DNA of 64,000 nt from Squalus acanthias. Taxonomy: Eukaryota. The notes beneath the pieces were generated by a model. It saw nothing but the letters and a program-made list of their open reading frames with translations. It was not told the origin of the DNA and did not search any database. Positions 22,940-64,000 of the stretch are shown here, one piece after another. Location of the stretch: NCBI GenBank assembly GCA_030390025.1, contig JASTWF010000121.1:992001-1056000 (forward strand), given 5' to 3'. Every line of letters begins with the position of its first letter. The stretch's first letter is position 1. The translations under genes were made by a program, and so were the position numbers.

Positions 22940-25685
22940 AACACAGACACTATTACTGAAACACGGCTGAAAGAAGGGCAGGAATGGCAGCTCAACATTC
23001 CTGGTTACAGGGTTTTTAGACGAGATAAAGGGGGATAAAAAAGGAGGGGGTGTCGCAATATTGGTTAACGAAACAATTACAGCTGTGAGCAGGGAAGATA
23101 TGTTGGAAGGATCATGGTACAAGGACTAGGGGGCACAGATTTAAAGTTTTGGGCAAGAGATACAGGAGGATGTGAGTTAAAACCTTTTTACACAGCGAGT
23201 GGTGATGACCTGGAACTCGCTGCCGACAGAAGTGGTGGAAGCGGAGACACTCAGTGTTTTCAAGGGGAGACTGGATAGGCACTTGAGGGAAATAAACTTG
23301 CAGGGCTACGGGGATAGAATGGGGGAATGGGAATGACTGGGTTGCTCTACAGAGAGCCGGCACGGACTCGATGGGCTCGATATGACTCTATGACTCATTA
23401 AATGAGGCCCTATGGGTTGAACTGAAGGACATAAATGGGGCAATTACACTGCTGAGAGTGTACTATAGACCCCCAAATAATCAGAGGGAGATAGAAGAGC
23501 CAATATGTAGGCAAATTTCTGAGAAGTGCAAAACAATAGGGCAGTAATAGTAGGGGATTTCAATGACCCTAACATTAACTAGGATAGAATCTGTGTAGAG
23601 AGTGTGCAGAATTCTGAAAATGCATTCAAGAGAACTTTTTTAGCCAGTACAGAGCAAGTCCAACAAGAGAGGGGGCGGTTCTAGACTTAGTTTTAGGGAA
23701 TGAAGCTGGGCAGGAGGAAGGGGTATCAGTGGGAGAGTATTTTGGTGGTAGTGATCATAATTCAGTTAGATTTAGCGTAGTTATGGAAAAGGACAAAGAT
23801 AGACCAGGAGTAAAAGTTCTCAATTGGGGAAAGGCCAATTTTACTAAGCTTTTTGTGGTACATATCAATGATTTAGACTTCAATGTAGGGGGCATGATTA
23901 AGAAGTTTGCAGATGATACAAAAATTGGCCGTGTGGTTGATAATGAGGAAGAAAGCTGTAGACTGCAGCAAGATATCAATGGACTGGTCAAGTGGGCAAA
24001 CAAGTGGCAAATGGAATTCAATCCAGAGAAGTGTGAGGTAATGCATTTGGGAAGGGCTAACAAGGTAAGGAAATACACCATAAATGGTAGGATACTGAGA
24101 AGAGTAGAGGAACAGAGGGACCTTGGAGTGCATGTCCACAGAACTCTGAAGGTAGCAGGACAGGTAGAAAGGGTGATTAAGGCATGCGGGAAAGATTGGA
24201 TAGGCTGGGATTGTTTTCTTTGGAACAGAGGAGGCTGAGGGGAGACTTGATTGAGGTGTATAAAATTATGAGGGGCCGAGATAGAGTGGATAGGGAGGAC
24301 CTATTTCCCCTAGAAGAGAGGTCAATAACCAGGGGTCATAGATTTAAAGTAACTGATAGAAGGATTAGAGGGGAGGTGAGGAGAACGTCTTTCGCCCAGA
24401 GGGTGGTGGGACGCTGAAACGCTCATCACATTTAAAATGCACTTGGATATGGACTTGAAGTGCCGTAACTTGCAAGGCTATGGATCAAGAGCTGGAATGT
24501 GGGATTGAAGGGATATTTACCAGTCCTAGCCCCTTTAGGGCTACCCCGGATCAGGCGTATTTCTCAGACGTTCATTTTTAACTAAAGTTTGAGGTAGCCG
24601 AATCCTAAAGTTCTGGGCTATCTCTCCCTAAAGGAAAGGAACAACCTGAGAATGTTACCGTCCTCCAGATAGCACTTTTAATAAGTTTAGCTAGACTGTA
24701 ACGTCCCAGATATTAAGAGGGTCCGGAAAACTCCCCTCAGAAATCTGCAACTCTTCATCAAAGAGTGTACAGAGATTGAGTTTGTGAGTTTTTGATACAG
24801 AAGTCTTATGTGCGACAATTCTAAAAATATATAGATTTATTAAAGAACCGACATGCAATCTACAGTTGGTGAATCAGTCAATCGCAACTTTAACAGCTCT
24901 AAAATGAAAAAAAAGTACATCTTTTTAACAGAGAATCTTACTTTTAAATCTTAACTTCGCCACAGTATTACAGTTCTTAAAGGTTTCTTATACAGGATAT
25001 ACATCAATATCAAATACCTTTGATCCCCGAGGTACAAAGAGTGGTAGACTACAGAGCTGCCTCTGAAGCCGAGAATCGCTTTGCCTGATTAAAGCGAGTC
25101 TGAAATTCCATTTGAGAGTTCAATATTTATACCCTTTTCCAGTGGTGTTTCCTTTAAGGTTTTCTGCTGATGCAAGTTAATTATCACTAGTCATCTTTCT
25201 GCCGACCTCTGCCATTCTTACTGCCACATCAGCCAGAACCTTTTCTCATCTCTCGGTGTTCTAAGTTCACCATATAAAAACAGTGTGCTGGGCAGGTGTT
25301 CTTTATTTTATATCATCATTATGAAGTTTAAATTAGAACACCTTATCCAGGGTGAACCATTGTTTTGTTCCCAAAAGGTCAGCTTATCGGAGCCATGCAC
25401 ATTCTGTTTCAATAAGTTTATTTATTCAGTGTCAACAACTGTCTTATCTCAATAGCCAGAATGCTTTCATAGCTATTTCATAGTTAGGTTTCCAAATTCC
25501 CAAACCCAGTTCGTCATGTTTTAATAAGGCCAGAACTCCTTCATAAGATAGTGTATTTTTCTGAATAGGTTATATGTCTTACTCCTTCACAGGATTAGGC
25601 TGGAGAGCTCTTTTTCGGCCGGCACAGACACGATGGGTCGAATGGCCTCCTTCTGTGCTGTAAATTTCTATGATTCTATGATTCA
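22940..25685 (+). mobile_element. Internally deleted CR1 interrupted by another CR1 3' piece (~23113-23395) and by the solo LTR
   Basis: EN motifs (GGGVA, YRPP, SDHN) fused to RT (KFADDTK); the tail resumes after 25591. Confidence 0.8.
24506..25591 (-). mobile_element. Solo LTR of the same foamy-like ERV family
   Basis: + strand TGAAGGGATATT...CCTTCACA, collinear with the proviral LTRs; 4-bp TSD GGAT (24502-24505 and 25592-25595); inserted in the 3' end of a CR1. Confidence 0.92.
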
Positions 25686-40105: not shown

Positions 40106-40136
<31 letters not shown>

Positions 40137-40218
40137 CCCGGCACTGGATCCGGGCTAGCCAGGGGAAGAGAGAGAGAGAGAGAGAGAGAAGACCCGGCAC
40201 TGATCCGGGATACCCGGG

Positions 40219-40249
<31 letters not shown>

Positions 40250-40384
40250 CCCGGCACTGGATCCGGGCTACCCGGGGAGAGAGAGAGAGAGAGAGAGAGA
40301 GAAGACCGGGCACTGGATCCGGGCTACCCGGGGAGAGAGAGAGAGAGAGAGAGAAGACCGGGCACTGGATCCGGGCTACCCGGG

Positions 40385-40415
<31 letters not shown>

Positions 40416-40907: not shown

Positions 40908-40938
<31 letters not shown>

Positions 40939-41630: not shown

Positions 41631-41689
41631 GCTGGCCAGGCGGGAGAAGAGAGGATGGGATGGAGCGAGAGAAAGAGGGAATCGTGGGG

Positions 41690-42660
41690 GGAGAGAAGGG
41701 CAGGAACTGGGGGAGAGAGAAGGTCATAAACTGGAGGAGAATGAAGGTCAGAAACTGGGGGAGAGAGAAGGTCAGAAACTGGGGTGAGAGAAGATCAGAA
41801 ACTGGGGTTGAGAGAAGGTCAGGAACTGGGAGAGAGAAAGTCAGAAACTGGGGGGAGAGAGAAGGTCAGAAACTGGGAGAGAGAGAAGCTCAGAAACTGG
41901 GGGGAGAAGGTCGGGAACTGGGGGAGAGAGAATGTCAGAAACTGGGGGAGAGAAGGTCAGGAACTGGGAGAGAGAGAAGGTCAGAAACTGGGAGAGAGAG
42001 AAGCTCAGAAACTGGGGGGAGAAGGTTGGGAACTGGGGGAGAGAGAATGTCAGAAACTGGGGGAGAGAAGGTCAGAAACTGGGAGAGAGAGAAGGTCAGA
42101 AACTGCGGGGGGGGGAGAGAAGGTCAGGAACTGGGGGAGAAGGTCGGGAACTGGGGGAGAAAGAAGGTCAGACACTGGGGGGAGAAGGTCGGGAACTGGA
42201 GGAGAGAGAGCATCAGAAACTAGGGGGTGAGAGAAGGTCAGGAACTGGGGGAGAGTGAAGGGCTAGAACTGGGGGGAGAGAGAAGGTCAGGAACTGGGAG
42301 AGAGAGAAGGTCAGGAACTGGAAGAGAGAGAAGGTGAGAAACTGTGGAGAGAGAGAAGGTCAGAAACTGGGGGAAAGAGAAAGTCAGAAACTGAGAGAGA
42401 GAAGGTCAGGAACTGGGAGAGAGAGAGGGTCAGGAACTGGAAGAGAGAGAAGGTGAGAAACTGTGGAGAGAGAGAAGGTCAGAAACTGGGGGAAAGAGAA
42501 AGTCAGAAACTGAGAGAGAGAAGGTCAGGAACTGGGAGAGAGAGAGGGTCAGGAACTGGGGAGAAAGAGAAGGTTATAAACTGTGGAGAGAGAAGTCAGA
42601 AATTGGGGGTGGAGAAGGTCAGAAACACGACGGGGAGAGCAGTTCAGAAACTGGGGGGTT
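41690..42660. repeat. G-rich AGGTCAG(G/A)AACTGGG tandem repeat
   Basis: 22-24-bp units, purine-rich + strand. Confidence 0.9.
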
Positions 42661-42974
42661 GTAAAGAGCCCAGAGCACAGTGGAGATGGGGGAAGAACGT
42701 GAACCAGGTCTAAAGCAGGGGGGAATGAGAGCGAGAATGTGATCCAGATGGTAAGACTGGTCACGTTCTTCCAACCCCACCCTCCTTACACCCGCAGCAC
42801 CTTCTCCCTCTCCTCCCTCTAGACCTGGTTGATTTCTCGGAAAGTTCGGGGCGCGTGTTGCAAGTGACATCATTGGACTGGACGAAATCCGGATGTCATG
42901 ACACTGTCACTATTCACTTCATGCCCAATAAACCTTTAACAATCCGTGACCTCTCACAATTCCCCATCCATGGT

Positions 42975-44535
42975 GGGGAAGGTCAGGAACTTGTTGGGGG
43001 GAGAAGGTCATGAAACCAGGGGAGAGGAATTTGGTCAGGAACCCGGGGGTAGGTCAGGAACTCGGGCCGAGTGGGAGGGAAAGTAAGGCACTTGGGTGTG
43101 GGGAGAATGTCAGAAACTTGGGGCCGTAGGTCAGGAACTTGGGCGGGGGTGGGGGGAGAAGGTCAGGAACTTGTGCGGGGGTGGGGGGGAGAAGGTCAGG
43201 AACTTGTGCGGGGGTCAAGGGCAGTAGGTCAGGAACTTGTGCGGGGGTGGGGGAGTAGGTCAGGAACTTGTGCGGGGGTGGGGGGGAGAAGGTCAGGAAC
43301 TTGTGCGGGGGTCAAGGGCAGTAGGTCAGGAACTTGTGCGGGGGTCAGGGGGAGTAGGTCAGGAACTTGTGCGGGGGTCAAGGGCAGTAGGTCAGGAACT
43401 TGTGCGGGGGTGGGGGGGAGAAGGTCAGGAACTTGTGCGGGGGTGGGGGGGAGAAGGTCAGGAACTAGTGCGGGGGTCAGGGGGAGTAGGTCAGGAACTT
43501 GTGCGGGGGTGGGGGGGAGAAGGTCAGGAACTTGTGCGGGGGTAGGGGGGAGTAGGTCAGGAACTTGTGCGGGGGTGGGGGGGAGAAGGTCAGGAACTTG
43601 TGCGGGGGTCAAGGGCAGTAGGTCAGGAACTTGTGCGGGGGTGGGGGAGTAGGTCAGGAACTTGTGCGGGGGTCAGGGGCAGTAGGTCAGGAACTTGTGC
43701 GGGGGTGGGGGGGAGAAGGTCAGGAACTTGTGCGGGGGTAGGGGGGAGTAGGTCAAGTACTTGTGCGGGGGTGGGGGGGAGAAGGTCAGGAACTTGTGCG
43801 GGGGTTGGGGGGAGAAGGTCAGGAACTTGTGCGGGGGTTGGGGGAGAAGGTCAGGAACTTGTGCGGGGGTCAGAGGCAGTAGGTCAGGAACTTGTGCGGG
43901 GGTCAGGGGCAGTAGGTCAGGAACTTGTGCGGGGGTGGGGGGGAGAAGGTCAGGAACTTGTGTGGGGGTCAGGGGGAGAAGGTCAGGAACTTGTGCGGGG
44001 GTCAGGGGGAGTTGGTCAGGAACTTGTGTGCGGGGGTGGGGGGGAGAAGGTCAGGAACTTGTGCAGGGGTGGGGGGGAGTAGATCAGTAACTTGGGTGGG
44101 GGAGCAGGGGGAGAAGGTCAGGAACTTGTTCGGGGGGCGGAGGGAGTAGGTCAGGAACTTGGGTATGGGTGGGGGGGAGTAGGTCAGGAACTTGGGTGGG
44201 GGTGAGGTGGGGGGAGTAGGTCAAGAACTTGTGTGGGGGTGGGGGGGGAGTAGGTCAGGTACTTGGGTGGGGGTCAGGGGGAGTAGGTCAGGAACTTGTG
44301 CAGGGGTGGGGGGGAGAAGGTCAGGAACTTGGGTGGGGGTCAGGGGGTGTAGGTCAGGAACTTGTGCAGGGGTGGGGGGGAGAAGGTCAGGAACTTGGGT
44401 GGGGGTCAGGGGGTGTAGGTCAGGAACTTGGGTGGGGGTCAGGGGGAGTAGGTCAGGAACTTGTGCGGGGGTGGGGGGGAGTAGGTCAGTAACTTGGGTG
44501 GGGGAGCAGGAACTTGTTAGAGGGCGGGAGAAGGT
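42975..44535. repeat. G-rich ~31-33-bp AGGTCAGGAACTTGTGCGGGGG tandem repeat
   Basis: Directly visible tandem units. Confidence 0.92.
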
Positions 44536-48110: not shown

Positions 48111-48623
48111 GGGGGAAAAATTCAGTTGGTTGCGCCTCCCGTTAGCGCCTTAAGAGTGTGCTAATGGAGCGCAAAGCAACTGGTGCCCGGGCGCAACGAT
48201 GTTTGCGCCACTCGCGAAATTAACTAGACATTTTGCGGTGTTGCTAAACTTTACCGCCGCGATCTCCTGCGCAAGCAGATCTTGACGTCATACGAAGGTG
48301 CAACGCCCTTGTGGCGCCCCGGAGCAGAAATTGAGTGGCGCCCCCATCCTTTCCGCCTGGTGCAACCAACGACTGGAAGACTGGAACGCTCCCCAGTCGC
48401 TGTGGGGCTGGGGGGGCGTTATTTAAAGGGGGCCTCTTCCTGTCTTTCTCTGTGGTTGACATTTTTGCACCACTCGTTCTGAGAGAGAGAGAGAGAGATT
48501 TGGAGAGAGAGAAAGAGAGACTTCTGCATTGAGTCAACGCTGTGTGAGGTAGTTTTGGCTACTGATCATAACTTTGCAGGTACTTTGGTTTTTGACCTTC
48601 ATAACTTTGATTGCCAAGAGTCT

Positions 48624-49772
48624 ATGGGGGCTGCACTGATTGGGTGCGTCGTCCTGCGCCACCAGAATCAGAGGACACAGAGACACAGAGAGAGAGTGGC
48701 AATCATGGCCAGACGGAGGAGGGCCAACAGGCCTCTGTACAGGACACCTTACCCTCCCAGGGTATATCGCCAACAATTCACATATATTAATATGACTGAG
48801 GAGCAGTGTTTGCGAAGGCTGCGCTTCAGCAAGGAGGTGGTCACTGAGCTCTGCCACCTGCTGCAGCCAGATCTGCAGCCTCAACTGAGGTCCAGGACGT
48901 CTCTGTCGGTGGCAGTGAAGATCACAGTGGCTCTGAACTTTTATGCCACTGGCTCATTTCAATCAGCTACTGGGGACATCGCCAATATCTCCCAGTTCGC
49001 GGTGCATTGCTGCATCCGTCAGGTCACAAATGCCCACTTTAAAAGGAAACGAGAGTACATCTCTTTCCCCATGACCCTGGACAAGCAGCAAGAATGCGCA
49101 ATGGGCTTTGCTAGGATAGCGGGCTTCCCCATGGTGCAGGGTGCCATTGACTGCACGCATGTGGCTTTGCGTGCTCCGCATGAGAATGCCAAGGATTTCC
49201 GCAACAGAAAGGGGTTCCATTCCTTAAACGTTCAGTTGGTCTGTGACCACAGACAGCTGATACTCGCTGTCAATGCCCACTATCCTGGCAGCTGCCATGA
49301 TGCATTCATCCTGCGCCAGACTACTGTGGCAGAACTTTTCCAGGCACCACATCAGCCAGTTGGTTGGCTTCTCAGGGACAAGGGATATCCACTGAGCACC
49401 TGGCTGATGACACCGCTCCGTACGCCCAACACCCCTGCTGAGCTGCGGTACAACGAGAGCCATCTCGCTACCAGGAACATCGTTGAGCACACAATCGGCG
49501 TGCTCAAGCAACAGTTCCGCTGTCTGGACCATTCTGGAGGAGCACTGCAGTACTCGCCTGAGCGAGTCTCCCACTTCGTAGTTGTGTGCTGCATGCTGTA
49601 TAACCTGCCAATCCTCAGGACCCAGCCAATGCCACCAGGCCTTGGAGCACCACCAGAGGAGGAGGAGGAAGAGGAGAAGGATGATCATCAGCAGCACCAA
49701 GGCGGGAGGGAGGCCCACAATGTAGAAACTGGAAGGGCCGTCTGTCAACGGCTGATAGCAAGCCGCTTCTAG
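48624..49772 (+). CDS. Harbinger (HARBI1-like) DDE transposase
   Basis: Open frame with GAIDCTH, RNRKGFHSLNVQLVCD, PGSCHDAFIL, DKGYP, RNIVE..IGVLK motifs; first ATG at 48624. Confidence 0.92.
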   Translation: MGAALIGCVVLRHQNQRTQRHRERVAIMARRRRANRPLYRTPYPPRVYRQQFTYINMTEEQCLRRLRFSKEVVTELCHLLQPDLQPQLRSRTSLSVAVKITVALNFYATGSFQSATGDIANISQFAVHCCIRQVTNAHFKRKREYISFPMTLDKQQECAMGFARIAGFPMVQGAIDCTHVALRAPHENAKDFRNRKGFHSLNVQLVCDHRQLILAVNAHYPGSCHDAFILRQTTVAELFQAPHQPVGWLLRDKGYPLSTWLMTPLRTPNTPAELRYNESHLATRNIVEHTIGVLKQQFRCLDHSGGALQYSPERVSHFVVVCCMLYNLPILRTQPMPPGLGAPPEEEEEEEKDDHQQHQGGREAHNVETGRAVCQRLIASRF

Positions 49773-50071: not shown

Positions 50072-51945
50072 CTACTTTTTGCTCTTCGAGGGTGATCTCC
50101 TTCCCTTGCGCACTTCCCCCCTTCCCACCCTACTGCTCCTCCGTAATGGGACCTCAGTGGCTGCAGCAAGGCTGCTGGAAGGCTGCTGATTGTCAGAACC
50201 TGAGACTGCAGATGCCCTTGAAGGACGGCCTCGACCAGCTCTGGGCCTGGAGGGCCCGGCTGCAGACTGCACCAACTCTGCATGGGCGGCAGCAGTCTGG
50301 GCTACAGGCGGTGGCAAGTGCAGTGGAGAAGTGACAGTGGTGGCAGCAGGAATGCTGTCATCTTGAGAGAGGACAGCAACTCCCTGCTCGACCGACACAC
50401 TGGCACTCCCACGGGGCAGCACTTCAGCATCCGGAGCAATCTGCTGGAGCACAGATTGCTGGCCTGCTGCGGCGCGGTGAAAGCCCCAGGGACATGTGAA
50501 CGAACCATCGAGGATGGCAGCAGTCAGTGCTCGCGTGGCCTCAATCTGAGTCTGCAGGAGAGCAGTCAGAGATGGGTTCATGGCAGCCAGTGACTGAATA
50601 GCAGCGCTAAACATTTGCGTGGCATCCGCCTGTGCTCCAGCAAAGCGCTCCACAGTCCTTGCCAGTGATTCAATGCATTCGGGCACCCTTCCCACTGCAC
50701 CCATGAGCTCAGTGTGCATGTCCACCGCCTGGGTGTTCATTTCAGCGATGAGCTGCTCCTCCTCTGTGTCCAGTGCAGCAGGACTCGCTGGCATACTCTC
50801 CCTCCGGGGAGAAGGCCCCCGTTCTTCCCTACCCCCATGGCGTTGCTGCAGCCCGCTGGGTCCTGGAGCTTCACCCTTATCAGACCCTTCCCCCCTACTC
50901 CCCTCCAGGGAAGGCGTGTTCCCAGTGTGGGCATGGGCTTCCTCGGGAGAGGGTGGCACTGATGCTCCGCCTTCATCTTCCTCCTCGCCTGCAGCTTCAC
51001 TCCCACTGGCAGCTTGAGGGCTCGTCTCCTCAGCTGGTGAATCACCATCTGAAAGCAGGGAGGTACAAGAGTGGTTTTAGCATGAGGACAGGGGGGCAGT
51101 AAGGGAGGAATGAGTGCAGCGATTTAGTAAGTTGGATTGAAAGTGTCAAAGGCTGGTGTTGTGAGGGACAAGTGGAAGGACAGAGGACAAAAAGGTGATG
51201 ACCTTACCATTGCTGTACAGAACGGGGTCGACGTCTCCAGTGGCGACGGGACCGATCACCCGGCTTGCCACAATCCTGTGGACGCGCGCCTCAAGATCGC
51301 TGAGGGGTTGCAGCTGAGGCCGCCCTCCACCCGTCCGTTGCTGCTGTCTCCTATTATGAGATAGCTTGGCCTGCAAGAAAAAGGACGGCGTCTGAGTAAA
51401 TATACAGCCATGGTCTTGCCTGATGTGCCTCCCATAGGTGAATAGCCCTTACTTTATGCAGCCATGGTCTTGCCTGATGTGCCTCCCATAGGTGAATAGC
51501 CCTTACTGTATGCAGCCATGGTCTTGGCTGATGTGCCTCCCATAGGTGAATAGCCCTTACTGTATGCAAAGTGTGGAATGTGCGTGTGTGTTTCATGAGA
51601 GGGCCATAGGTGTTGGATGAGTGTTGGGCATTGGGGTTTTAAGACCCTCTGGCCATAGAGTGAGGTTGAGATGGAGGGATGGAGAGGTATTGAAAAAAAG
51701 CCACTCATCCTGACGATCCGACTGATGTCGTTGAACTTTTTTCGACATTGTATATGGGTCCTGGGCACCATGCTCCTGAAGGAGACGCTCTGAGCCACCT
51801 CCCTCCACACTCTTCTGTACTCGCGCGGCAAAGGCCTCCTGCCACTCTCAGGGAAGAGTATAGATTTTCTGCGCTCCACCGTGCCAACCAGAGCATCCAA
51901 GGCCCGCTCGCTGAAGCACTGAGCTCGTTCTCTCACCCTCTCCAT
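50072..51945 (-). CDS. Harbinger Myb/SANT-like DNA-binding partner gene, 3 exons (51945-51709, 51370-51208, 51048-50072)
   Basis: MERVRERAQCFSERALDALV...W.EVA..V......R...QCRKKFND (trihelix) | AKLSHNRR..TGGG | acidic/low-complexity tail. Exon phases are consistent; the intron 1 donor reads ATGAGT. Confidence 0.82.
51403..51567. repeat. 58-bp tandem repeat (~3 copies) in intron 1 of the Harbinger Myb gene
   Basis: CAGCCATGGTCTTGCCTGATGTGCCTCCCATAGGTGAATAGCCCTTACT.. repeated. Confidence 0.9.
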
Positions 51946-53144
51946 AGTCCTTGGCTGGACGATTTAGGCACAGGTCTCTCCAGGCCGAGATTCAAGGCTC
52001 CAATGAGCAGGGTGTGGCTGGAGTGCAAGATCGACCCTCCCCTTTAAGAACTGTCGGGCGCCAGTGTGTCTGTGTTCCATCGCTAACTGACAGCACCTGC
52101 GCTGCGCCCGCGCTCTGAGTTAGCGCCTTGCTCCTCGGCCTTTGCGCCTTAAGACAGGTGTGTAGCGCCTGATTTAGCGCTCCAATCACCTCCAGGGGCG
52201 ATAGAAGTCAAGTTTGCAATCAGAGGCGATAATTAGCACCAGGCGCCAATCTTTGCGCCCGGCCGATAATTGCGCTCCAAATGAATTTCTCCCCCTAAGT
52301 AATTTATTGAGCAGTGAGGACGAATTTTGCGTGCAGTGTAGAGCATTTTCCCCTGGCACTAATTCAACATCGTTTGTCCTAACATCGCCATTCCTTGGCT
52401 ATAACAAATTTCTAGCCCATTCTAGAATACAGGCAGCAGAGTTTTGGATGAGCTCAAGTATATGTAGGGTGGAAGATGGGAGTCCGGCGAGGAATTGGAA
52501 TAGTAAAGTCTGGAGGTAACAAAGGCATGGATGGGGGTTTTCAGCAGTGGATGAGTTGAGGCAGGGGCAGAGTCGGACGATGTTACGGAGGTTGAAGTAG
52601 GTGGTCTGGGTGATGGAGCGGATATGTGGTCAGAAGCTCATCTCAGGGTCAAATCCATCACCAAGGTTAGCAAATGGTCTGGTTCAGCCTCAGACAGTTG
52701 CCAGGGAGAGGGATGGATTCGGTGGCTAGGGAACAGAGTTTGTGGTGCGGACCGAAGACAATGACTTCGGTCTTCCCAATAATTAGTTGGTGGAAATTTC
52801 TGCTCATCCAGTACTGGATGTCGGACAATCAGTCGAACAATTTAGAGACAGTGGAGGGGTGGAGAGAGGTGGTGGTGAGGTAAAGCTGGGTGTCATAAGC
52901 GTACGTGTGGAACCTGACCTGCTTTTGGATGAGTTTGCCAAGGGGCAGCATGTAGACGAGAAATAGGAGGGTGCCAAGGATATTTTTTCCACAGTACATA
53001 AATGTGTTAAAACACAAATTTCCTCGATCTTTTTAGCTTAATAATGGTGTAATTGCTGAAGATCACGAGAAAATTCAAGGCCCATGTCAACATTTTGTTT
53101 CGGAAAATACTGAAGTTAACATTTCACTCTCATTATTTGTTAAT

Positions 53145-53878
53145 CATAGAGTCATAACGGCACAGAAGGAGGCCATTCAGCTCATCGAGTCCGTGCCAGC
53201 TCTCTGTAGAGCAATCCAGTCAGTCCCATTCCCCAGCTCTATCCCCGTAGCCCTGCAAGTTTATTTCCCTCAAGTGCCTATCCCGTCTCCCCTTGAAAAC
53301 ATTGAGTGTCTCCGCTTCCACCACTTCCATCGGCAGCGAGTTCCATGTCCTCACCACCCGCTGCATAAAAAGGTTTTTCCTCACATCCCCCCTGTATGTC
53401 ATGCCCAAAACCTTAAATCTGTGTCCCCTAGTCCTTGTGCCATCAACTAGTGGCAACAGCCTTTCCCCGTCTAGCCTATCCAAACCCATCATAATCTTGT
53501 ACACCTCTATCAAATCGCATCGCAACCTCCTTTGCTCTAATGAAAACAAATCCAGCTTCTCCAACCTGACCTTGTAGCTAAGATCCCCCATTCCCGGAAC
53601 CATTCTGGTAAATCTCCTCTGCACCCTCTCAAGGGCCTTCACATCTTTCCTAAAGTGTGGTGACCAGAAATGTATCCACTACTCCAGTTGTGGCCTAACC
53701 AGCGCTTTATAAAGGTTCAGCATAACTTCTCTGCTTTTGTACTCAATACCTCTATTTATGAAGCCCATATGCTTTGCTAACCACTCTCTCAATATGTCCC
53801 GCCACCTTCAGGGACCTATGCACATTAGCTCCCAGGTCCCTCTGTCCCTGCACACTCTTTAAAACTGTGCCATTAGCC
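53145..53878 (-). mobile_element. CR1 3' fragment
   Basis: Close relative of 28107-28850; ALERVQRRFTRM..RTRGH. Confidence 0.88.
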
Positions 53879-53899
53879 TGTTTGTGCTACACATGTTTG

Positions 53900-54830
53900 G
53901 GGACAAGGTCAGGAACTCGGGGAGAGAGGGAGGGTCAGGAACTCAGGGAGAGAAGGAAGGTCAAGAACTCGGGGAGAGAGGGAAGGTCAGGAACTCGGGG
54001 AGAGAGGGAAGGTCAGGAACTCGGGGAGAGAGGGAGGGTCAGGAACTCGGGGAGAGCGAAGGTCAGGAACTCGGGGAGAGAGGGAGGGTCAGGAGCTCGG
54101 GGAGAGAGGGAAGGTCAGGAACTCGGGGAGAGAGGGAATTCGGTCAGGAACTCGCGGAGAGAGGGAAGGTCAGGAGCTCGAGGAGAGAGGGAAGGTCAGG
54201 AGCTCGTGGAGAGAGGGAGGGTCAGTAGCTCGGGGAGAGATGGAAGGTCAGGAGCTCGTGGAGAGAGGGAGGGTCAGGAACTCGGGGAGAGAGGAAGGTC
54301 AGGAACTCGGGGAGAGAGGGAAGGTCAGGAACTCGGGGAGAGAGGGAAGGTCAGGAACTCGGGGAGAGAGGGAGGGTCAGGAACTCGGGGAGAGAGGGAA
54401 GGTCAAAACCTCGGGGAGAGAGGGAAGCTCAGGAACTCGGGGAGAGAGGGAAGGTCAGGAGCTCGGGGAGAGAGGGAAGGTCAGGAACTCGGGGAGAGAT
54501 GGAAGGTCAGGAGCTCGGGGAGAGAGGGATGGTCAGGAACTCGGGGAGAGAGGGAAGGTCAGGAGCTCGGGGAGAGAGGGAGGGTCAGGAACTCGGGGAG
54601 AGAGGGAGGGTCAGGAGCTCGTGGAGAGAGGGAGGGTCAGGAACTTGGGGAGAGAGGGAGGGTCAGGAACTCGGGGAGAGAGGGACGGTCAGGAGCTCGG
54701 GGAGAGAGGGAAGGTCAGGAACTCGGGGAGAGAGGGAGGGTCAGGAACTCGGGGAGAGAGGGAGGGTCAGGAGCTCGGGGAGAGAGGGAAGGTCAGGAAC
54801 TCAGGGAGAGAGGGAGGGTCAGGAGCTTGG
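53900..54830. repeat. G-rich 26-bp AGGTCAGGA(A/G)CTCGGGGAGAGAGGG tandem repeat
   Basis: Directly visible tandem units. Confidence 0.92.
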
Positions 54831-55493
54831 GAGTGGGGCGGTTGGGGAAATCACGGAGATACAGTGGGGATTGGGGATAAACACGATCCAGGTCTAAAGG
54901 GGGGTGGGGGGAATGATCGCGAGAATGTGATCCAGATGGGTAGACGGATCATATTTACCCTTCCTGTTCGACGTAGATCACTTTCTTCCAACCCCACCCC
55001 CTTTACACCCGCACCACGTTCTCTCTCCCTCCCCTAGACCTGCTTGATTTCTCAGTAAGCCCAGCACGTGTGTGGAAAGTGACATTATTGGACTGGACGA
55101 AATCCGTAGGTCATGACGCTTTCACTATTCGCTTTATACCCAATGAATCTGTTAACAATCCGTGATCCACACACAATGCCCTATTTAAGAGGGGGGGGGG
55201 GCTGGGGGGTGGAGGGAAGAAGGTCAAGAAGTTGGGCGGGGGTGAGAAGGTCAGGAACTTGTTGGGGAGGTGCTGGAGAAGGTCAGGAACTTGGGCGGGG
55301 TGAGGAGGTCTGGAACTCGGGGCAGGGGGAAAGAAGGTCAGGCAGTTTGGGGGGGGCGTGCGGTGGAAGAAGGTCCTAACACGGGAGGGTGAGTGTTGTT
55401 TGTTCTTTGAATGCAGTAGTGCTAGCACTGTGATCTCTGTCTGGAGCTTGTCTGTCACAGTGAATGGATCAAATTACGCATTGCAAAGACTAT

Positions 55494-56245: not shown

Positions 56246-57558
56246 CTTGATTGCTCAGACAGGCAGGATCTTATGGCACATTCCAGACAAATTATTGGGT
56301 GTGTCTTGTCCTCCAAGGGGACCAATCAGAAATCTGGTCTTGTCATCCAAGTGGACCAATCAGAACTTTGGTGTTGTAAATACATGCTGTCCCTCTAATT
56401 ATCACAAGTTACAGTGCAAAAGCCCCACAGAAAGTCTGGGGCAAGTGTTAGTGTAATGAATGGTGAGCTCCGTTCGTTCACTGTTGACTGGCCAATAATA
56501 ATTGCCATTTTTCCCCAGTAACTGAAATTTCTAATATCAAAAATAAAATTATAAGCTTAATAGAAAATTCAAAAATGAACACCCTCTCACAATAACATGA
56601 TTAAATTTATCATTGAATTGTCTTTGAATGTCTTGAATAAAGTCTATACTTGAAAGCCTTGGCTTGTCTCCAGAGCTGGAGCTTCTCCACAACAGTTGGA
56701 CAGTTTCCAACCACATTCTGGTAATGGCTGTCTGAGCATGTACCGCTGCAAAATTCCCCAGCGTGCACTGAGGTCACGGCCCAGAATATTCCAGGTATAA
56801 CTAGGTAGCTAGGATTTCTGTGGCGAGTGTCTCACCTCCTGACTCCCCAAAGCCTTTCCACCTTCTACAAGGCACAAGTAAGGAGTGTGATGGAATACTC
56901 TCCACTTGCCTGGATGAGTGCAGCTTCAACAACACTCAAGAAGCTCGACACCATCCAGGACAAAGCAGCCCGCTTGATTGGTACCCCATCCACCACATTA
57001 AACATTCACTCCCTCCACCACCGGCATACCGTGGCTGCAGTGTGTACCATCCACAAGATGCACTGCAGCAACTCGCCAAGGCTCCTTCGGCAGCACCTCC
57101 CAAACCCGCGACCTCTTCCACCTAGAAGGACAAGGGAGCAGGCGCATGGGAACACCACCACCTCCAAGTTCCGCTCCAAATCACACACCATCCTGACTTG
57201 AAAGTATATTGCCGATCGTTCATCGTCGCTGGGTCAAATTCTGGAACTCCCTTCCTAACAGTACTGTGGAGTACCTTCACCACACGGACTGCAGCAGTTC
57301 AAGAAGGTGGCTCACCACCACCTTCTCAAGGGCAATTAGGGATGGGCAATAACTGCTGGCCTTGCCAGCGACATCCAAATCCCATGAACGAATAAAAAAA
57401 TAAACTCCCACAAACAATTTCCCCCTTTCCTGTTCAATACTGTTATTGTACATCATTAAATACAGAGTAACCTGCCAGCTTGTGAGCAAAAGCAAGCTGG
57501 TCAATAATTCAGATCAGGCAGGAGGAGAGGGTGTGAGTTTAGCAAGTGTGAGTCCTCT

Positions 57559-58682
57559 TGAAGGGATATTACCCTTTAGGTCTACCCCGGATCAGGCGTA
57601 TTCCTCAGACGTTCACTTTCAACTAAAGTTTGAGGTAGCCGAATCCTAAAGACGCCTAATTGGGTCTGAAGGTCTGGACCATCTCTCCCTAAAGGAAAGG
57701 AACAACCTGAAAATGTTACCATCCTCCAGATAGCACTTTTAATAAGTTTAGCTAGACTGTAACCTTCCGGATATTATGAGGGTTTGGAAAACTCCTCCAG
57801 AATTCTGCAACTCCTCGCCAAAGAGTGTACAGAGATTGAGTTTGCGAGTTTGATACAGAAGTATTATGTGAGATAATTCTAAAAATATATAGATTTATTA
57901 AAGAACCGACATGTAATTTACAGTTGGTGAGTCATTCGCAACATTAACAGTTCCAAAAAGAGAAAACTTTACAATCTTATTATCAGAGATCCCCAACTCT
58001 CAAATCTTAACTTCACTACAGTTTTACAGTTCTTAGTTTTCTACAGGATATCCATCAAAATCAAATACAGTACCTTTGATCCCCGAGGTACAAAGAGTTG
58101 TAGACTTACAGAGCCTGCCTCTGAAGCTGAGAATTGCTTTGCCCCTTTACAGCGAGTCTACTATCCCATTTGAGAGTTCAATAGTTATACCCTTTTCCAG
58201 TGGTATTTCCTTTAAGGTTTTCTGCTGATGTAAGCTAATTATCTCTAGTCATTTATCGCTGACTTCTACAATTCTTAGTCACCTCAGCTGGTAGTATTAC
58301 AGAATTGTGTCTCATCTCTAGGTGTTCTAAGTTTATCATAAAAAACGGGTGTAACAGCAGGTGTGTTTTTTACTTGATGTCATTTTTACGAAGGCAGATG
58401 TTTGTGCTTCTTTATGAAGTGTTAATTAGAACACCTTAACCAGGGTGAACTATTGACTTGTTCCAATGTCAGTCTGTCAGGAGCCTTTACCCTTCTGTTT
58501 CAATAAGGTTATTGATTCAGTTTCAACAACTATCTTATCTCTATAGCCAGAATGCTATCACAGCTTTTCCATAGTTAGGTTTCTAGATTTCCAAACCCAG
58601 TTTGTCATGTTTCAATAAGGCCAGAATTCTTTCATAGAATGGTGTATTTTTCTGAATAGGTTGTATGGCCTATTCCTTCACA
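57559..58682 (-). repeat. 3' LTR of foamy-like ERV
   Basis: Same termini; preceded on the minus strand by the purine tract AAAGAGGGG (58685-58693). Confidence 0.93.
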
Positions 58683-59294
58683 CACCCCTCTTTACCAAAA
58701 AATGAGATCAAAACATCAGGGCAGTGTTTGGTCAATTTTACTAATAAGGTTACAATATCATATTAAATTCACGAGATTCACAAGAGCCTAATCATGTGCT
58801 ACATGAAATTCCTTTTAAGTATTTCCCAGGACAAAGTTTTGCCTTATTTTAAATGGAACACAAATTAAAAGGATGATAGGTACATTGTCATGCAATTAGC
58901 GAAACAACATGTACTTAGAATGTCCAATTGCCAGATGTACTTTCCGTAGAGGTGAGTTCTCCATACGAGTCAAGGAGACATCATTTGGAACTAGCTGAAG
59001 CTTGACACGCTGTTCCATTGATCCAGCGTGTGGACAGATTCTTGTTTTCGTGAAGGCTTTGCCAGGAGCTCAGTTGATTCCTTCTCCATCGCAGTGTTTT
59101 CCTCCTTCGTTGAAGTAACTCATTGATCTTTACTTGTTTCGGTTGTGACTTTTTGTGAATCCAATTCCTGAGGTGTCGGCGACACTGTCTGGCTGACCAT
59201 CGTCAGTAGTTCGATCGCCTCCATTTCCTGTGTCGTGCTCCAAGCTGGGTCTTGGAAGACAGTGTACGACTGCACCTTGTATTGTTCCTCCATT

Positions 59295-59628
59295 TCAGTA
59301 TCCCGCAGGACATCTTTTGAGATTGTCTATGGAGACAGTTTTAAGAATATGCTTGCCATTCGGCTGATTAATATGTATTTTAACTGTTCTTTCGTTAATA
59401 ACAGAATGTATTTGAACAGGTTTTTTCCACTTAGATCTTAAACCAGGTTTTTGCTCGAACTTCTTTCCTGTACCAATTCTCCTGCTAGGGGTTGCCATGC
59501 TTTGTTTGTCAACTTTTTCTGCCTATTTGCCTCCCTTATCCTCTGATCAATTTGATGATCTCCTCTGTTACTTCTTTTTTTAAATCTAACTGTCGCTGTT
59601 GGGTCAAGGAATCAGAGAGTGTAGAGGC
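59295..59628 (-). pseudogene. pol: Foamy-like integrase C-terminal domain remnant
   Basis: KWKKPVQIHSVINERTVKI...KTVSIDNLK resembles the foamy IN CTD (W.KP..V....N.RTV...TVSIDNLK); separated from the core by a CR1 insertion. Confidence 0.82.
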
Positions 59629-59629
59629 A

Positions 59630-60814
59630 ATGGGTGGAGGATTGGTTATCTAACAGGAAGCAGAGAGTTGGGATAAATGGTTCATTCTCGGAATGGCAAC
59701 CGGTAGCCAGTGGTGTTCCGCAGGGGTCGGTGCTGGGTCCCCAACTCTTTACAATCTATATTAACGATTTGGAGGAGGGGACCGAGTGTAACATATCAAA
59801 GTTTGCAGATGATACAAAGATGGGAGGAAAGTAGAAAGTGAGGAGGACATAAAAACCTACAAGGGGATATAGACAGGCTGGGTGAGTGGGCGGAGATTTG
59901 GCAGATGCAATACAATATTGGAAAATGTGAGGTTATGCACTTTGGCAGGAAAATTCAGAGAGCAAGTTATTATCTTAATGGCGAGAAACTGGAAAGTACT
60001 GCAGTACAAAGGGATCTGGGGGTCCTAGTGCAAGAAAATCAAAAAGTTAGTATGCAAGAAGGCCAACGGAATGTTGGCTTTTATTGCTAGGGGGATAGAT
60101 TATAAAAACAGACAGTTATATAAGGTATTGGTGAGACCGCACCTGGAATACTGCATACAGTTTTGGTGTCCATACTTAAGAAAAGACATACTTGCTCTCG
60201 AGGCAGTACAAAGAAGGTTCACTCGGTTAATCCCGGGGATGAGGGGGTGGACATATGAGGAGAGGTTGAGTAGATTGGGACTCTACTCATTGGAGTTCAG
60301 AAGAATGAGAGGCGATCTTACTGAAACAAATAAGATTGTGAAGGGGCTTGATCGGGTGGATGCGGTAAGGATCTTCCCAAGGATGGGTGAAACTAGAACT
60401 AGGGGGCATAATCTTAGAATAAGGGGCTGCTCTTTCAAAACTGAGATGAGGAGAAACTTCTTCACTCACAGGGTAGTAGGTCTGTGGAATTTGCTGCCCC
60501 AGGAAGCTGTGGAAGCTACATCATTAAATAAATTTAAAACAGAAATAGACAGTTTCCTAGAAGTAAAGGGAATTAGGGGTTATGGGGAGCGGGCAGGAAA
60601 TTGGACATGAGGCTGAGTTTGGATCGGTCGAGGCCCTGTGGGTGGCGGAGCGGGCCCAGGGGCTGAGTGGCCGGGTCCTGCTCCTACTTCTTGTGTTCTT
60701 TAGATATGAGGTTAGGATCAGATCAGCCATGATCTTATTGAATGGCGGAGCAGGCTCGAGGGGCTGATTGGCCTACTCCTGCTCCTATTTCTTATGTTCT
60801 TATGTTCTTATGTT
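59630..60814 (+). mobile_element. 5'-truncated CR1 inserted into the proviral integrase
   Basis: [18 protein letters not shown], (TTATGTTC)n tail; integrase sequence on both sides. Confidence 0.92.
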
Positions 60815-62090
60815 CAATTAAAGAACTATGGATAAGCGGTGTATGCATCTCAACCCCATACATCAGATAATATGGAGTTTTAGGGGACACTGTCCTGATG
60901 CAGATGCGGGCACATTATTAAGTGATAGCTGCACCTCCGGAATGACGGTGGTCCACTTATTTCCCCTGATTCTCAACAGTTTGACCAATAGCTTTTTTAC
61001 TTCCTAGTTTTTATGTTCCACCAGCCCGCTGATTGCAGATGACGTGGCGTGCTGTGCTCTAACCCAATCCCCCTTTGTTCGCAGTAGTCTTTGAAGACCT
61101 TGGATACAAAGGCTCCGCCTTGATCGGTGTGTAAGATTTTGGGTGCACCGACTACAGTAATTATGTCAGTAATAGCATTGGCGAGTGCGTTTTCCGAAAC
61201 AGTTTTTGTGGGGACCAGCCAGCAGAAGGAAGTGCATCCATCTACACAAACGAGAACATGTCTGTATCCCAAAGATGGGGGAAGTGGTCCAATAAAGTCA
61301 ATAATGAATTTTCCCATTGGCTCATCAGCTTTCACAGGAGCCAATGGTGGTGGCTTAATTAGTGATGACTTATTGGTTAAATTGCATGGCTCACAATTTG
61401 CCACATATGTTTTACAGGCCTTAAGCATGCCTGGCCACCAATATAAAGGAGTCAATTTGCAGAATGTTGTTCTGGCACCACAATGTGCTTGACCTATGCC
61501 CTCGTGAGATTCTTTTACAAGCTGTTCTCGTTTGTGTCTCGGGGGTACTTCTCGGTTTCCCTTGGGCAACTTAACTAGCAGAATGCCCGTAGGGGTTTCC
61601 GAGTAAAGTACTTTGGTGGATATCCTGGTGGATTCTCTTTTGTTGGGTCTAATAGCTGAATCAGTTCCTTATCCTGATTAGCTGCCAGTTCTGCCCTAGT
61701 GATAACACTAATATTGGCATGGCCCCTCTCGAGGGGGTGTCATGCAGACCGAACGTTTCGCTTGTTCGTCTGCAAGACTGTTTCCTTTTGAGTGTACTGT
61801 CCCAGTGGTATGCCCGTTTACATGAATCACCTGACAATTCTGTTTCTCCATTCTCGAACGAAGAATGTCTTCCCACAATGACTTATGTTTTATGAGTTTA
61901 CCTTATGATTGGTAAAAATGTGTTTGTTCCCAGAAAACTAGATCTTGGTTATATCCTCTTTTACAGTAGTCACTATCCGTACAGATTAGTGTGGGTTTAA
62001 TAGGGTCTGCCTTTTCTAAAGCATACCATAGTGCTGCGGCTTCAGCATATTGCGCTGACTTATGGCCAAGGGGTATGGACAGTAATTCTT
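60815..62090 (-). pseudogene. pol: Foamy-like pol remnant: RNase H + integrase Zn-binding/core
   Basis: RNase H: SIPLGHKSAQYAE..ICTDSDY..*GKLIKHK..W..HVNGH..GNSLAD. Integrase: AHCG..LYWWPGM..C..C..FIIDFIGPLPPSLGYRHVLVCVDGCTSFCWLVPTK..ILHTDQGGAF..STPRHLQS. Disrupted by stops and frameshifts. Confidence 0.9.
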
Positions 62091-62566
62091 CTGGATAAAA
62101 ATAGGAATCTCAAAGTCCCTACTACTATCTCAAAGGAATCTCAAAGTCCTCCCAGCTGAGGATTGTTGGGATGTCCCTTTTTTAATCGTCATTGATGATC
62201 CCATCAAAAATAATTACTTGGTCTTGTGGAGGTACATGGATAGGATTATTTCCCCTAATAAGCAATCGTTTGAATTTCCTAATAAAAAGACTTGGCCAAT
62301 TCCGACAGGGTATGCCATTTCGTCAAGGACCTAACCCTCGGTTACGGTTTAATATGAACTTTATAAGAAATTTCTAGACCTCAATGGTATATTGAGGGAG
62401 TTCTGATTTAAGTTCTACAAGGCCTGATCAGGGACTTGTCATCTCTAGAGACTTAAATCTGGGTCTTAGTACCACTGTCAGTAAACACTCCTTCTATACT
62501 TAACAACCTACAAGATGGATATCGATATAAATATAAGTATAGGTTCTGTATCAAGTCGTTAACACA

Positions 62567-62580
62567 CACGTTGGGCGCCA
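62567..62580 (-). promoter_or_regulatory. Primer-binding site, tRNA-Lys1,2 type
   Basis: TGGCGCCCAACGTG 2 nt inside the 5' LTR end; matches the first 14 nt of the Lys1,2 PBS TGGCGCCCAACGTGGGGC used by foamy viruses. Confidence 0.88.
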
Positions 62581-62582
62581 AC

Positions 62583-63716
62583 TGAAGGGATATTTACTAG
62601 TCCTCGCCCCTTTGGGGCTAGCCCAGTTCAGGTGTATTCCTCAAACGTTCACTTTCAACTAAAGTTTGAGGTAGCCGAATCCTAAAGACGCTTAATTGGG
62701 TCTGAAGGTCTGGACCATCTCTCCCTAAGGAAAGGAACACTGAAAATGTTACCATCCTCCAGATAGCGCATTTAATAAGTTTAGCTAGACTGTAACCCTT
62801 TCGGATATTATGAGGGTCCGGAAAACTCCCCCAGAATTCTGCAATTCCTCACCAAACAGTGTACAGAGATTGAGTTTGCGAGTTTGATACAGAAATATTA
62901 TGTGAGACAATTCTAAAAATATATAGATTTATTAAAGAACCGACATGTAATTTTACAGTTGGTGAGTCAATTGCAACATTAACAGTTCCAAAAAGAGAAA
63001 CCTTTACAATCTTATTATCAGAGATCCTTACTCTCAAATTTAACTTCGCTACAGTTTAACAGTTCTTAGTTTTCTACAGGATATCCACCAAAATCAAATA
63101 CAGTACCTTTGACCCCCGAGGTACAAAGAGTTGAAGACTTACAGAGCCTGCCTCTGAAGCTGAGAATCGCTTTGCCCCTTTACAGCGAGTCTACTATCCC
63201 ATTTGAGAGTTCAATATTTATACCCTTTTCCAGTGGTATTGCCTTTAAGGTTTTCTGCTGATGTAAGCTAATTATCTCTAGTCATTTTTCTGCTGACTTC
63301 TGCAATTTTTAGTCACCTCAGCTGGTAGTATTACAGAATCGTGTCTCATCTCTAGGTGTTCCAAGTTTACCATAAAAAATGGTGTAACAGCAGGTGCGTT
63401 TTTTACTTGATGTCATTTTTACGAAGGCAGTTGTTTGTGCTTCTTTATGAAGTGTAAATTAGAACACCTTAACCAGGGTGAACTATTGACTTGTTCCCAA
63501 TGTCAGTCTATCAGGAGCCTTTAACCTTCTGTTTCAATAAGGTTATTGATTCAGTGTCAACAACTATCTTATCTCTATAGCCAGAATGTTATCACAGCTT
63601 TTCCATAGTTAGGTTTCTAGATTTCCAAACCCAGTTTGTCATGTTTTAATAAGGCCAGAATTCTTTCATAGAATTGTGTATTTTTCTGAATAGGTTATAT
63701 GGCTTATTCCTTCACA
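62583..63716 (-). repeat. 5' LTR of foamy-like ERV
   Basis: Minus strand TGTGAAGG...CCCTTCA; aligns end to end with 57559-58682. Confidence 0.93.
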
Positions 63717-64000
63717 CTCTTGGAGAAGGACATCATTTGGACTGAATACTTTGTACTGTGGGATTATTGGGCAGTGCAGGGGGTGTGAAAGGGTGAAATC
63801 TGCTTCTCAATGAGAAGGCGCCTTCTTTGATGGACTATTTACAGTGCGGCACTATTTGGTAGCGCAGTTAAATATTAAAGAGTAAAAATCTAATGATTTA
63901 TTCTCTTGCAAAGAACCATATTAAATGCAGCATGTAGCAAATGCTGAGATTATTTATTGTTCTTGCTTTATCGAGAGTCCGTTGTGGCTCGAGGGGTGGC

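What the first reader, a model, noticed from the sequence alone, without database searches (positions are those of the whole stretch)
57555..63720. Endogenous foamy-virus-like provirus with both LTRs in a shark-type genome
Seen: paired ~1.13-kb LTRs, CTCT TSD, Lys1,2 PBS, PPT, and RNase H/IN motifs (FIIDFIGPLPPS.GY, LYWWP, TVSIDNLK). Known: a 4-bp TSD, Lys1,2 priming, long LTRs and these IN motifs typify Spumaretrovirinae. Endogenous foamy-like elements are uncommon but have been reported from fishes, including cartilaginous fishes. Inference: possibly an undescribed lineage. The two LTRs differ by scattered substitutions and small indels, so the insertion can be dated.
Basis: partly seen in the sequence, partly recalled or inferred. 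Interest (0 to 1): 0.75.

Follow-up and report, generated by a model that had tools for sequence, protein, structure and literature searches.

The report
Gutted foamy-like provirus, natural vector layout
This is a dead, gutted copy of a foamy-virus-like retrovirus in a vertebrate (probably shark) genome, with no detectable capsid, reverse-transcriptase or envelope gene, and the same gutted layout appears to recur in other copies, likely because it kept the RNA signals needed to ride on a helper virus.

Summary
A minus-strand element (57559-63716) has LTRs of 1134 and 1124 bp (K2P 0.047), a 4-bp TSD, a Lys-type PBS and a PPT. Its integrase groups with foamy and foamy-like viruses (99/98); grouping with class I ERVs (p-AU 0.0007) or Gypsy (0.033) is rejected.

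It is not a provirus-sized genome. Without a later LINE insertion it is about 5.0 kb: LTR, short leader, RNase H-integrase, 0.6-kb stub, PPT, LTR. No gag, protease, RT or env was detected. Contigs of divergent copies in four coded organisms run colinear from PBS into RNase H, so the deletion looks family-wide.

The kept 1.6 kb of pol matches in position the 1.8-kb CAS-II packaging region of mammalian foamy viruses. Best reading: a helper-dependent family, tens of millions of years old. Packaging function is inferred, not shown.

Foamy-like ERVs of cartilaginous fish are published; I could not read the key paper. The scan already noted gutted and env-deleted foamy-like copies, and the packaging idea, elsewhere in this genome. 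The shark host is not shown by my calls.

The parts
57555..57558 (.). target-site duplication, left copy (CTCT on +)
57559..58682 (-). 3' LTR, 1124 bp, TG...CA
58683..58693 (-). polypurine tract AAAGAGGGG (58693-58685), then two bases TG (58684-58683) before the LTR start seen at host junctions; contains the GGGTG border motif
   Evidence: motif described in PMC5210030 passages
58694..59282 (-). 0.59-kb stub between pol and PPT; no env or accessory gene detected
   Evidence: Pfam 0 families in 3 of 3 frames; PDB only chance hits for one frame
59283..59627 (-). integrase C-terminal part, with SH3_11 CTD and TVSIDNLK; broken by a frame switch near 59460-59440
59628..60818 (+). later insertion: 5'-truncated CR1-like LINE (59632-60814; family label recalled), tandem-repeat tail, flanked by CAAT at 59628-59631 and 60815-60818
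   Evidence: RVT_1 9e-9; other copies elsewhere in the window; LINE-free joint 59627>60815 in 5 contigs of X1 and 4 of X3, 0 in X7 and X13
60819..61668 (-). integrase N-terminal part, HHCC zinc finger and catalytic core; frame switches near 61030 and 60895
61711..62109 (-). retroviral-type RNase H, detected from Pfam model position 35 of 141 onward; stops present
62110..62562 (-). 0.45-kb leader, unassigned (possibly a gag stub and/or the start of RNase H); holds the junction of the large 5' deletion and a local tandem duplication at about 62104-62149
   Evidence: no significant match; colinear contigs of other copies; duplication visible
62563..62582 (-). primer-binding site (62580-62563, Lys-type; tRNA assignment recalled) after a 2-base GT spacer
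62583..63716 (-). 5' LTR, 1134 bp, TG...CA
63717..63720 (.). target-site duplication, right copy (CTCT on +)
24506..25591 (-). solo LTR of the same family, 1086 bp, own 4-bp TSD GGAT (24502-24505, 25592-25595); K2P 0.133 and 0.137 to the two proviral LTRs

Best explanation
It is a dead copy of a foamy-like endogenous retrovirus with no detectable gag, protease, RT or env, and it likely belongs to a helper-dependent family that was copied as RNA by the proteins of a fuller relative, probably keeping the 3' end of pol because that stretch would carry the internal packaging signal. Shown: LTR pair, TSD, PBS, PPT, foamy-type RNase H-integrase, a later LINE insertion, and colinear contigs of divergent copies across the 5' deletion. 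Inferred: tRNA-Lys-primed reverse transcription and integration by helper-supplied Pol; spread inside the germ line; RNA-level function of the kept pol (a CAS-II equivalent); insertion tens of millions of years ago; solo-LTR formation by LTR-LTR recombination.
For: Affinity: PDB best hits for the integrase piece are PFV integrase, E 1e-48, against Ty3 3e-8 (8 of 9 matches are PFV chains). The RNase H piece gives 5 of 5 hits named Pr125Pol, RNase H or PR-RT-RNase H, best E 1e-10. Among the best 150 hits from 1.84 billion proteins, the best single-domain score is feline foamy virus Pol, 148.8 bits against 107.0 for the best Gypsy-type row. Integrase tree of 42 rows: window with 7 foamy and 11 foamy-like rows at 99/98. 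Deletion: pol similarity starts at FFV residue 621 and ends at 1130 of 1156; only 471 bases lie between the LTR and that point. Family-wide: over 61850-62575, 1139, 999, 286 and 18 contigs were laid in 4 of 4 runs, all 30 bins have depth, and the share running on unlike the stretch is 0.01, 0, 0.01 and 0.16. Overlapping pieces with up to 32 differences tile it (62055-62261, 62204-62325, 62232-62455, 62273-62543, 62336-62575). Real integration: 2 of 2 insertions have a 4-bp TSD. Kept segment: about 1.6 kb of 3' pol against about 1.8 kb for CAS-II, which is essential in PFV, SFVmac and FFV and works with Gag, Pol and Env supplied in trans (PMC5035957 section 2.2, read).
Against: No function was tested; the match to CAS-II is positional only. 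[quoted passage not shown] The leader does not fold better than shuffles (z -0.49). Only one two-LTR copy was seen whole: no genome is held, no contig spans the stretch, and short contigs of a repeat can hide rare or divergent full-length copies. On the env side the listed pieces leave gaps (58694-58892, 59155-59182) and the table was cut. No helper element was identified. The CAS idea came from an earlier scan note, so that note is not independent support.
Confidence: 0.55

Rival explanations
1. Same helper-dependent family, but the kept RNase H-integrase stretch is passive: one founder with chance breakpoints amplified using only LTR, PBS, leader and PPT signals.
For: No internal PPT copy and no unusual leader structure. 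One founding deletion is a single event, so a positional match to CAS-II could be chance.
Against: Both deletions stop close to the edges of the region that foamy vectors need, and 1.6 kb of dispensable sequence was not shed in the copies seen.
Confidence: 0.2
2. The family kept RNase H-integrase because it made the protein (for example from the ATG at 62318 in the leader) and supplied its own integrase in cis.
For: HHCC and catalytic motifs remain recognisable, and a 223-codon piece is open. The leader has 5 ATG triplets, one in a purine-rich context.
Against: In PFV only the full Pol precursor is packaged, not free integrase (PMC3705302 passages). This copy has 10 stops in 433 codons of one frame and several frame switches. 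No gag match was found for the leader.
Confidence: 0.13
3. The deletions are private to this copy or a few copies, made after insertion or multiplied by segmental duplication; the family is otherwise an ordinary full-length or env-less ERV.
For: Only one whole copy was seen. Earlier scan notes describe 8.5-9.2-kb env-deleted foamy-like elements in this genome (not checked). Contig tiling is indirect.
Against: Divergent contigs in runs of 4 organism labels bridge the leader and RNase H colinearly, with at most 1 in 100 running on unlike in the three large runs. Depth in the leader bins is of the same order as in the integrase bins in X1 and X3, and about half in X7 and X13 (depth is no copy number).
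Confidence: 0.09
4. The element is a Ty3/Gypsy retrotransposon, a class I ERV, or another class III type (ERV-L, snakehead-like, lokiretrovirus).
For: Most of the 150 best integrase hits fall outside the foamy-like clade and lack a retroviral-type RNase H; the Atlas feature search returns generic retrotransposon integrases. No ERV-L, snakehead or lokiretrovirus row was in my trees.
Against: AU tests reject window+class I (p 0.0007) and window+Gypsy (p 0.033). The RNase H is Pfam RNase_H, not RT_RNaseH. RNase H-integrase scores 234 bits to macaque SFV against at most 117 for Gypsy rows and 99 for class I-type rows. All 9 of the 150 hits with a retroviral RNase H fall in the foamy-like clade.
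Confidence: 0.03

Closest known systems
Exogenous mammalian foamy viruses (PFV, SFVmac, FFV, BFV, EFV)
   Same: Integrase 46% identical to macaque SFV over 185 columns; RNase H and CTD best hits in PDB are foamy proteins; long LTRs, 4-bp TSD, Lys-type PBS, GGGTG at the PPT border.
   Different: Outside the mammal-plus-frog clade (99/97); no gag, PR, RT, env or accessory gene detected; no perfect central PPT copy; two extra bases between PPT and integrated U3 end.
Foamy-like ERVs of cartilaginous fish: CmiFLERV (PMC5512871, passages), ERV-Spuma.0-Sca (PMC10699275, passages and part 1 of 4), and the virus of Wang, Chen and Cui 2023 (PMC9972966, title in reference lists only)
   Same: Foamy-like pol basal to tetrapod foamy viruses, in a probable cartilaginous-fish host. 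[quoted passage not shown]
   Different: No sequence of these elements was available to me, so identity was not tested. The passages I read describe no RT-less, helper-dependent form.
Teleost foamy-like ERVs (DrFV, AcERV and others; PMC5210030, passages)
   Same: 4-nt TSD, mostly Lys PBS, GGGTG border motif, long LTRs.
   Different: Those described are full-length, some above 17 kb with accessory genes; this one is about 5 kb without the LINE.
Replication-deficient foamy transfer vectors (CAS-I, CAS-II, CAS-III; PMC5035957 section 2.2)
   Same: Same order of parts: LTR, PBS and short leader, 3' part of pol, PPT, LTR, relying on proteins supplied in trans.
   Different: Natural and decayed; packaging function untested; central PPT copy not found.
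Non-autonomous ERVs such as mouse IAP 1-delta-1, ETn and VL30 (recalled; PMC6466679 seen as a search listing only)
   Same: Internally deleted, amplified with helper proteins.
   Different: Those are orthoretroviral types; as I recall they are not defined by keeping the RNase H-integrase stretch.

Membership tests
Foamy-like ERVs (FLERV / ERV-Spuma) | Pol groups with foamy viruses rather than orthoretroviruses or Gypsy | tested here: met
   Integrase tree 99/98; AU rejects class I (0.0007) and Gypsy (0.033); RNase H-integrase tree 100/100 against class I outgroup. No ERV-L, snakehead or lokiretrovirus rows.
Foamy-like ERVs (FLERV / ERV-Spuma) | RT phylogeny (the usual defining marker) | not testable with these tools
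   No RT in this copy; no genome held.
Foamy-like ERVs (FLERV / ERV-Spuma) | 4-bp TSD | tested here: met
   2 of 2 insertions in the window; also typical of gammaretroviruses.
Foamy-like ERVs (FLERV / ERV-Spuma) | tRNA-Lys primer-binding site | tested here: inconclusive
   PBS at the expected place; assignment to Lys1,2 rests on recall, no tRNA library was searched.
Foamy-like ERVs (FLERV / ERV-Spuma) | GGGTG motif at the PPT-LTR border | tested here: met
   motif per PMC5210030.
Spumaretrovirinae in the strict sense (mammalian genera) | Nests within the tetrapod foamy virus clade | tested here: not met
   Excluded from the mammal-plus-frog clade at 99/97 and 85/91.
Spumaretrovirinae in the strict sense (mammalian genera) | [quoted passage not shown] | tested here: not met
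   No internal match within 1 mismatch in this decayed copy; feature.
Spumaretrovirinae in the strict sense (mammalian genera) | Asymmetric end processing (U5 trimmed, U3 not) | tested here: inconclusive
   Two bases lie between LTR and PBS and also between PPT and the U3 end seen at 2 of 2 host junctions; only one PPT junction seen. Rule per PMC9728412 passages.
Spumaretrovirinae in the strict sense (mammalian genera) | Foamy Gag, Env, separately expressed Pol, internal promoter, tas/bet | not testable with these tools
   These regions are not detectable in this copy.
Ty3/Gypsy | RT_RNaseH-type RNase H and integrase grouping with Gypsy | tested here: not met
Class I (gamma/epsilon-like) ERVs | Integrase groups with class I; MLVIN_C C-terminal domain | tested here: not met
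   AU p 0.0007; CTD is SH3_11.
Non-autonomous ERV family | Same deletion in many independently integrated copies | tested here: inconclusive
   Colinear divergent contigs across the 5' junction in 4 of 4 runs favour it; whole copies with distinct flanks were not seen.
Cartilaginous-fish endogenous foamy virus of Wang, Chen and Cui 2023 | Sequence identity with the published element | not testable with these tools
   Paper not held; no sequence available.

The most novel reading that the evidence does not exclude
A fish foamy-like virus evolved its own minimal vector: a multi-species, RT-less family that kept the CAS-I/CAS-II/CAS-III equivalents. The internal pol packaging signal, unique to foamy viruses, would then predate the split of fish and tetrapod foamy lineages. 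The two spare bases at the U3 end may also mean this lineage trimmed both DNA ends, so that asymmetric processing arose later.
Probability: 0.35. Interest if true: 0.65.

Novelty: new variant of a known kind. Interest (0 to 1): 0.42.

Why it matters
CAS-II has been mapped only in mammalian foamy viruses (PFV, SFVmac, FFV). A natural deletion family in a deep-branching vertebrate is a ready-made deletion map of what the RNA needed in cis, and it would date that packaging strategy. RT-less families are also invisible to RT-based ERV surveys, so fish foamy-like diversity and copy numbers may be undercounted. As a single dead provirus it is an ordinary repeat.

Tried and rejected
Genome-wide census: no genome is held for this window.

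Word-based homologue searches with the integrase piece found none: 0 of 676 candidates at E 1e-20 and 0 of 97 at 1e-10. These are weak blanks, since FFV Pol exists in the collection. Viral contigs gave one weak locus, L001 (34%, E 3e-4), not used.

Leader as gag stub or as connection/RNase H start: neither is supported. Pairwise alignments to 7 foamy-like Pols gave at best 9 of 200 shuffles as high among 21 comparisons. A profile of 13 natural Pols scored -2.9 bits against a null 95th percentile of -0.2. Pfam gave 0 families in 3 frames and PDB only ubiquitin variants at E about 1. An IIFDG word near 62220-62205 resembles the first RNase H motif but is only a lead.

3' stub as env remnant: no Pfam or meaningful PDB hit. 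The best pairwise score (3 of 200 shuffles, among 21 comparisons) fell on the RT region of FFV Pol and is taken as chance.

Other blanks: leader folding not unusual; no Rfam or tRNA hit in the window; Atlas searches gave generic integrase clusters and, for the LINE, only Chordata/Echinodermata. Expression: no RNA holder listed; X16 is only guessed to be RNA. Copy number was not derived, because summed contig depth is no copy number.

The 149-row tree was the quick search only; 2 of 151 rows were dropped for short matches. The trees used 41 and 19 hand-picked references out of about 280 proteins held. Earlier-findings look-ups by sequence, near and relatives returned nothing. PMC9972966 and PMC8223930 were not held. 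No supplements were read; those of PMC10699275 and PMC5512871 may list related elements.
Full report
OBSERVATION. The element lies on the minus strand at 57559-63716. The 5' LTR (62583-63716, 1134 bp) and 3' LTR (57559-58682, 1124 bp) both run TG...CA and align at 94.6%. They differ by 33 transitions and 18 transversions in 1119 sites plus 10 gap events, K2P 0.047 +/- 0.007, spread evenly along the LTR. CTCT flanks both ends. A solo LTR at 24506-25591 has the same termini and its own 4-bp TSD, GGAT, which fixes the boundaries independently. It is 13-14% distant from both proviral LTRs, so it comes from another wave or subfamily. The PBS starts two bases after the 5' LTR; its Lys1,2 assignment is recalled, not tested. 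The PPT is AAAGAGGGG at 58693-58685.

ANATOMY. The interior is 3.9 kb, of which 1.19 kb is a plus-strand, 5'-truncated LINE (RVT_1 9e-9) flanked by CAAT. It interrupts the integrase. Other copies lack it: the joint 59627>60815 stands in 5 contigs of run X1 and 4 of X3, and in none of X7 and X13. Without it the element is about 5.0 kb. tblastn with 7 foamy-like Pols finds only FFV residues 621-1130 of 1156, that is RNase H and integrase. No protease or RT is found. The 471 bases between LTR and RNase H and the 589 bases between integrase and PPT give 0 Pfam families in 6 of 6 frames and no significant pairwise, profile or PDB match. The copy is dead: 10 stops in 433 codons of one frame, frame switches near 61030, 60895 and 59450, and the LINE.

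AFFINITY. The 223-aa integrase piece matches PFV integrase at E 1e-48 and Ty3 at 3e-8. The RNase H piece matches chains named Pr125Pol, RNase H or PR-RT-RNase H, and the C-terminal piece only PFV integrase, weakly (E 0.03). In 1.84 billion representatives, the ranking by whole-protein E-value is led by a tandem-repeated Gypsy-type protein. By single-domain score the best is feline foamy virus Pol, followed by amphibian foamy-like proteins (Pleurodeles, Spea, Pelodytes) and an unnamed Logan protein. In a 42-row integrase tree the window joins 7 foamy and 11 foamy-like rows at 99/98; AU tests reject union with class I-type rows (p 0.0007) and Gypsy rows (p 0.033). The class I and Gypsy labels are mine, from Pfam content and names and from the tree. 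A 20-row RNase H-integrase tree with the mixture model puts it outside the mammal-plus-frog clade (99/97), unresolved beside the Pleurodeles rows. No teleost, chimaera or shark foamy-like reference and no ERV-L, snakehead or lokiretrovirus row was available. It is therefore a foamy-like ERV, not a member of a spumavirus genus.

FAMILY. Of 24 listed public runs, 20 hold part of 60820-63720 (best share 0.40), in 8 studies and 7 organism labels. I laid 5 of them, from 4 labels. Over 61850-62575, which must contain the junction of the gag-PR-RT deletion, all 30 bins have depth in 4 of 4 runs. The share of laid contigs that runs on unlike the stretch is 0.01, 0 and 0.01 in the three large runs and 0.16 in the small one (18 contigs). 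Overlapping pieces with up to 32 differences tile it from PBS to RNase H. Dozens of distinct contigs cover single internal positions (for example 75, 52, 23 and 5 at 62058). On the env side all bins have depth, but the listed pieces do not bridge every point. I read this as a family-wide deleted form in several related species. The limits are real: contigs are short, no piece spans the element, and rare or more divergent full-length copies would be missed.

MECHANISM. With no Gag or RT the element cannot copy itself, yet it ends in clean TG...CA termini with a TSD. The most likely route is packaging of its RNA by a fuller relative, tRNA-primed reverse transcription and integration by helper Pol (inferred). 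Why keep RNase H-integrase? Mammalian foamy viruses need, besides the 5' leader (CAS-I) and 3' end (CAS-III), an internal region of about 1.8 kb encoding the C-terminal domains of Pol (CAS-II) for genome and Pol encapsidation, and their transfer vectors are built from these parts (PMC5035957, section 2.2 read; PMC3705302 passages). The element keeps about 1.6 kb of the same part of pol. I took this idea from scan note e1-7805515 and checked only the positional match. Against it, the perfect central PPT copy is absent and the leader shows no special folding. I give 0.55 to the full reading, 0.2 to passive retention, 0.13 to a cis-acting integrase protein, 0.09 to private deletions and 0.03 to a non-foamy identity.

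AGE. K2P 0.047 gives 47 My at 0.5e-9 per site per year (rate assumed for catshark in PMC10699275, passage), 107 My at 2.2e-10 (assumed in PMC4422223, part 1 of 2 read), and 24 or 11 My at 1e-9 or 2.2e-9. Gene conversion was not tested. The LINE is most simply a later insertion into this copy.

END PROCESSING. PFV trims two bases from U5 only (PMC9728412 passages). Here two bases separate LTR and PBS, and two also separate the PPT from the U3 end seen at 2 of 2 host junctions. This may mean trimming of both ends, or a dinucleotide slip in this copy; one junction cannot decide.

HOST. My calls show a jawed vertebrate (Ig V-set exon).

KNOWN VERSUS NEW. Foamy-like ERVs are published from chimaera (PMC5512871, passages), catshark (PMC10699275), teleosts (PMC5210030, passages) and cartilaginous fish in a paper I saw only as a title (PMC9972966, not held). 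Searches (2 papers; 1 read in passages; 1, listing only; 20 of 30 listed, listings only; 10, listings only) showed no description of an RT-less, helper-dependent foamy-like family. Subscription papers and repeat databases were not searchable, so this is a weak blank. The scan itself already noted env-deleted, gutted and solo-LTR foamy-like copies in other pieces of this genome; whether they are this family is untested, since sequence look-ups returned nothing.

VERDICT. Real, foamy-like, internally deleted and probably helper-dependent: a new variant of a known kind. Interest 0.42; 0.65 if the kept pol is shown to be an ancient packaging signal.

Noticed in passing
window 1551-1894 (+): Ig V-set exon (Pfam V-set 8e-17) whose V and J-like parts (YSC...YGAGTQLNVT) lie in one exon ending in a GT donor. 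A germline-joined VJ-type domain, recalling NKp30 or pre-joined light chains (recalled). Shows a jawed-vertebrate host.
   Followed up: partly
window 48483-49772 (+) and 51454-51963 (-): Open 429-codon DDE_Tnp_4 transposase frame (2e-38) with a Myb/SANT-like gene nearby (1e-8): a Harbinger-type DNA transposon that may be young.
   Followed up: no
window 14443-17619 (+): LINE ORF2 with 910 open codons (endonuclease and RT), related at about 68% to the LINE piece inside the provirus.
   Followed up: no
window 18750-22400, 38900-44500, 53800-54900, 7700-8800: Several minisatellite arrays (38/41, 33, 26 and 58-bp units); the 24-, 26- and 33-bp arrays share the core AGGTCAGGAACT.
   Followed up: no
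window 58683-58684 with 63716 and 25591: Two bases (TG) between the PPT and the U3 end seen at both host junctions. Either both ends were trimmed, unlike PFV, or this copy has a TG slip.
   Followed up: partly
protein P0019 (unnamed Logan record): A foamy-like element with a Gag-sized N-terminal region, protease, RT, RNase H and integrase in one 1687-aa frame, deepest on the foamy-like side. Mammalian foamy viruses make Pol separately.
   Followed up: no
window 3800-4650 and 10120-10950: A 97%-identical 300-bp direct repeat 6.3 kb apart (D20), suggesting a recent local duplication of LINE-rich DNA.
   Followed up: no
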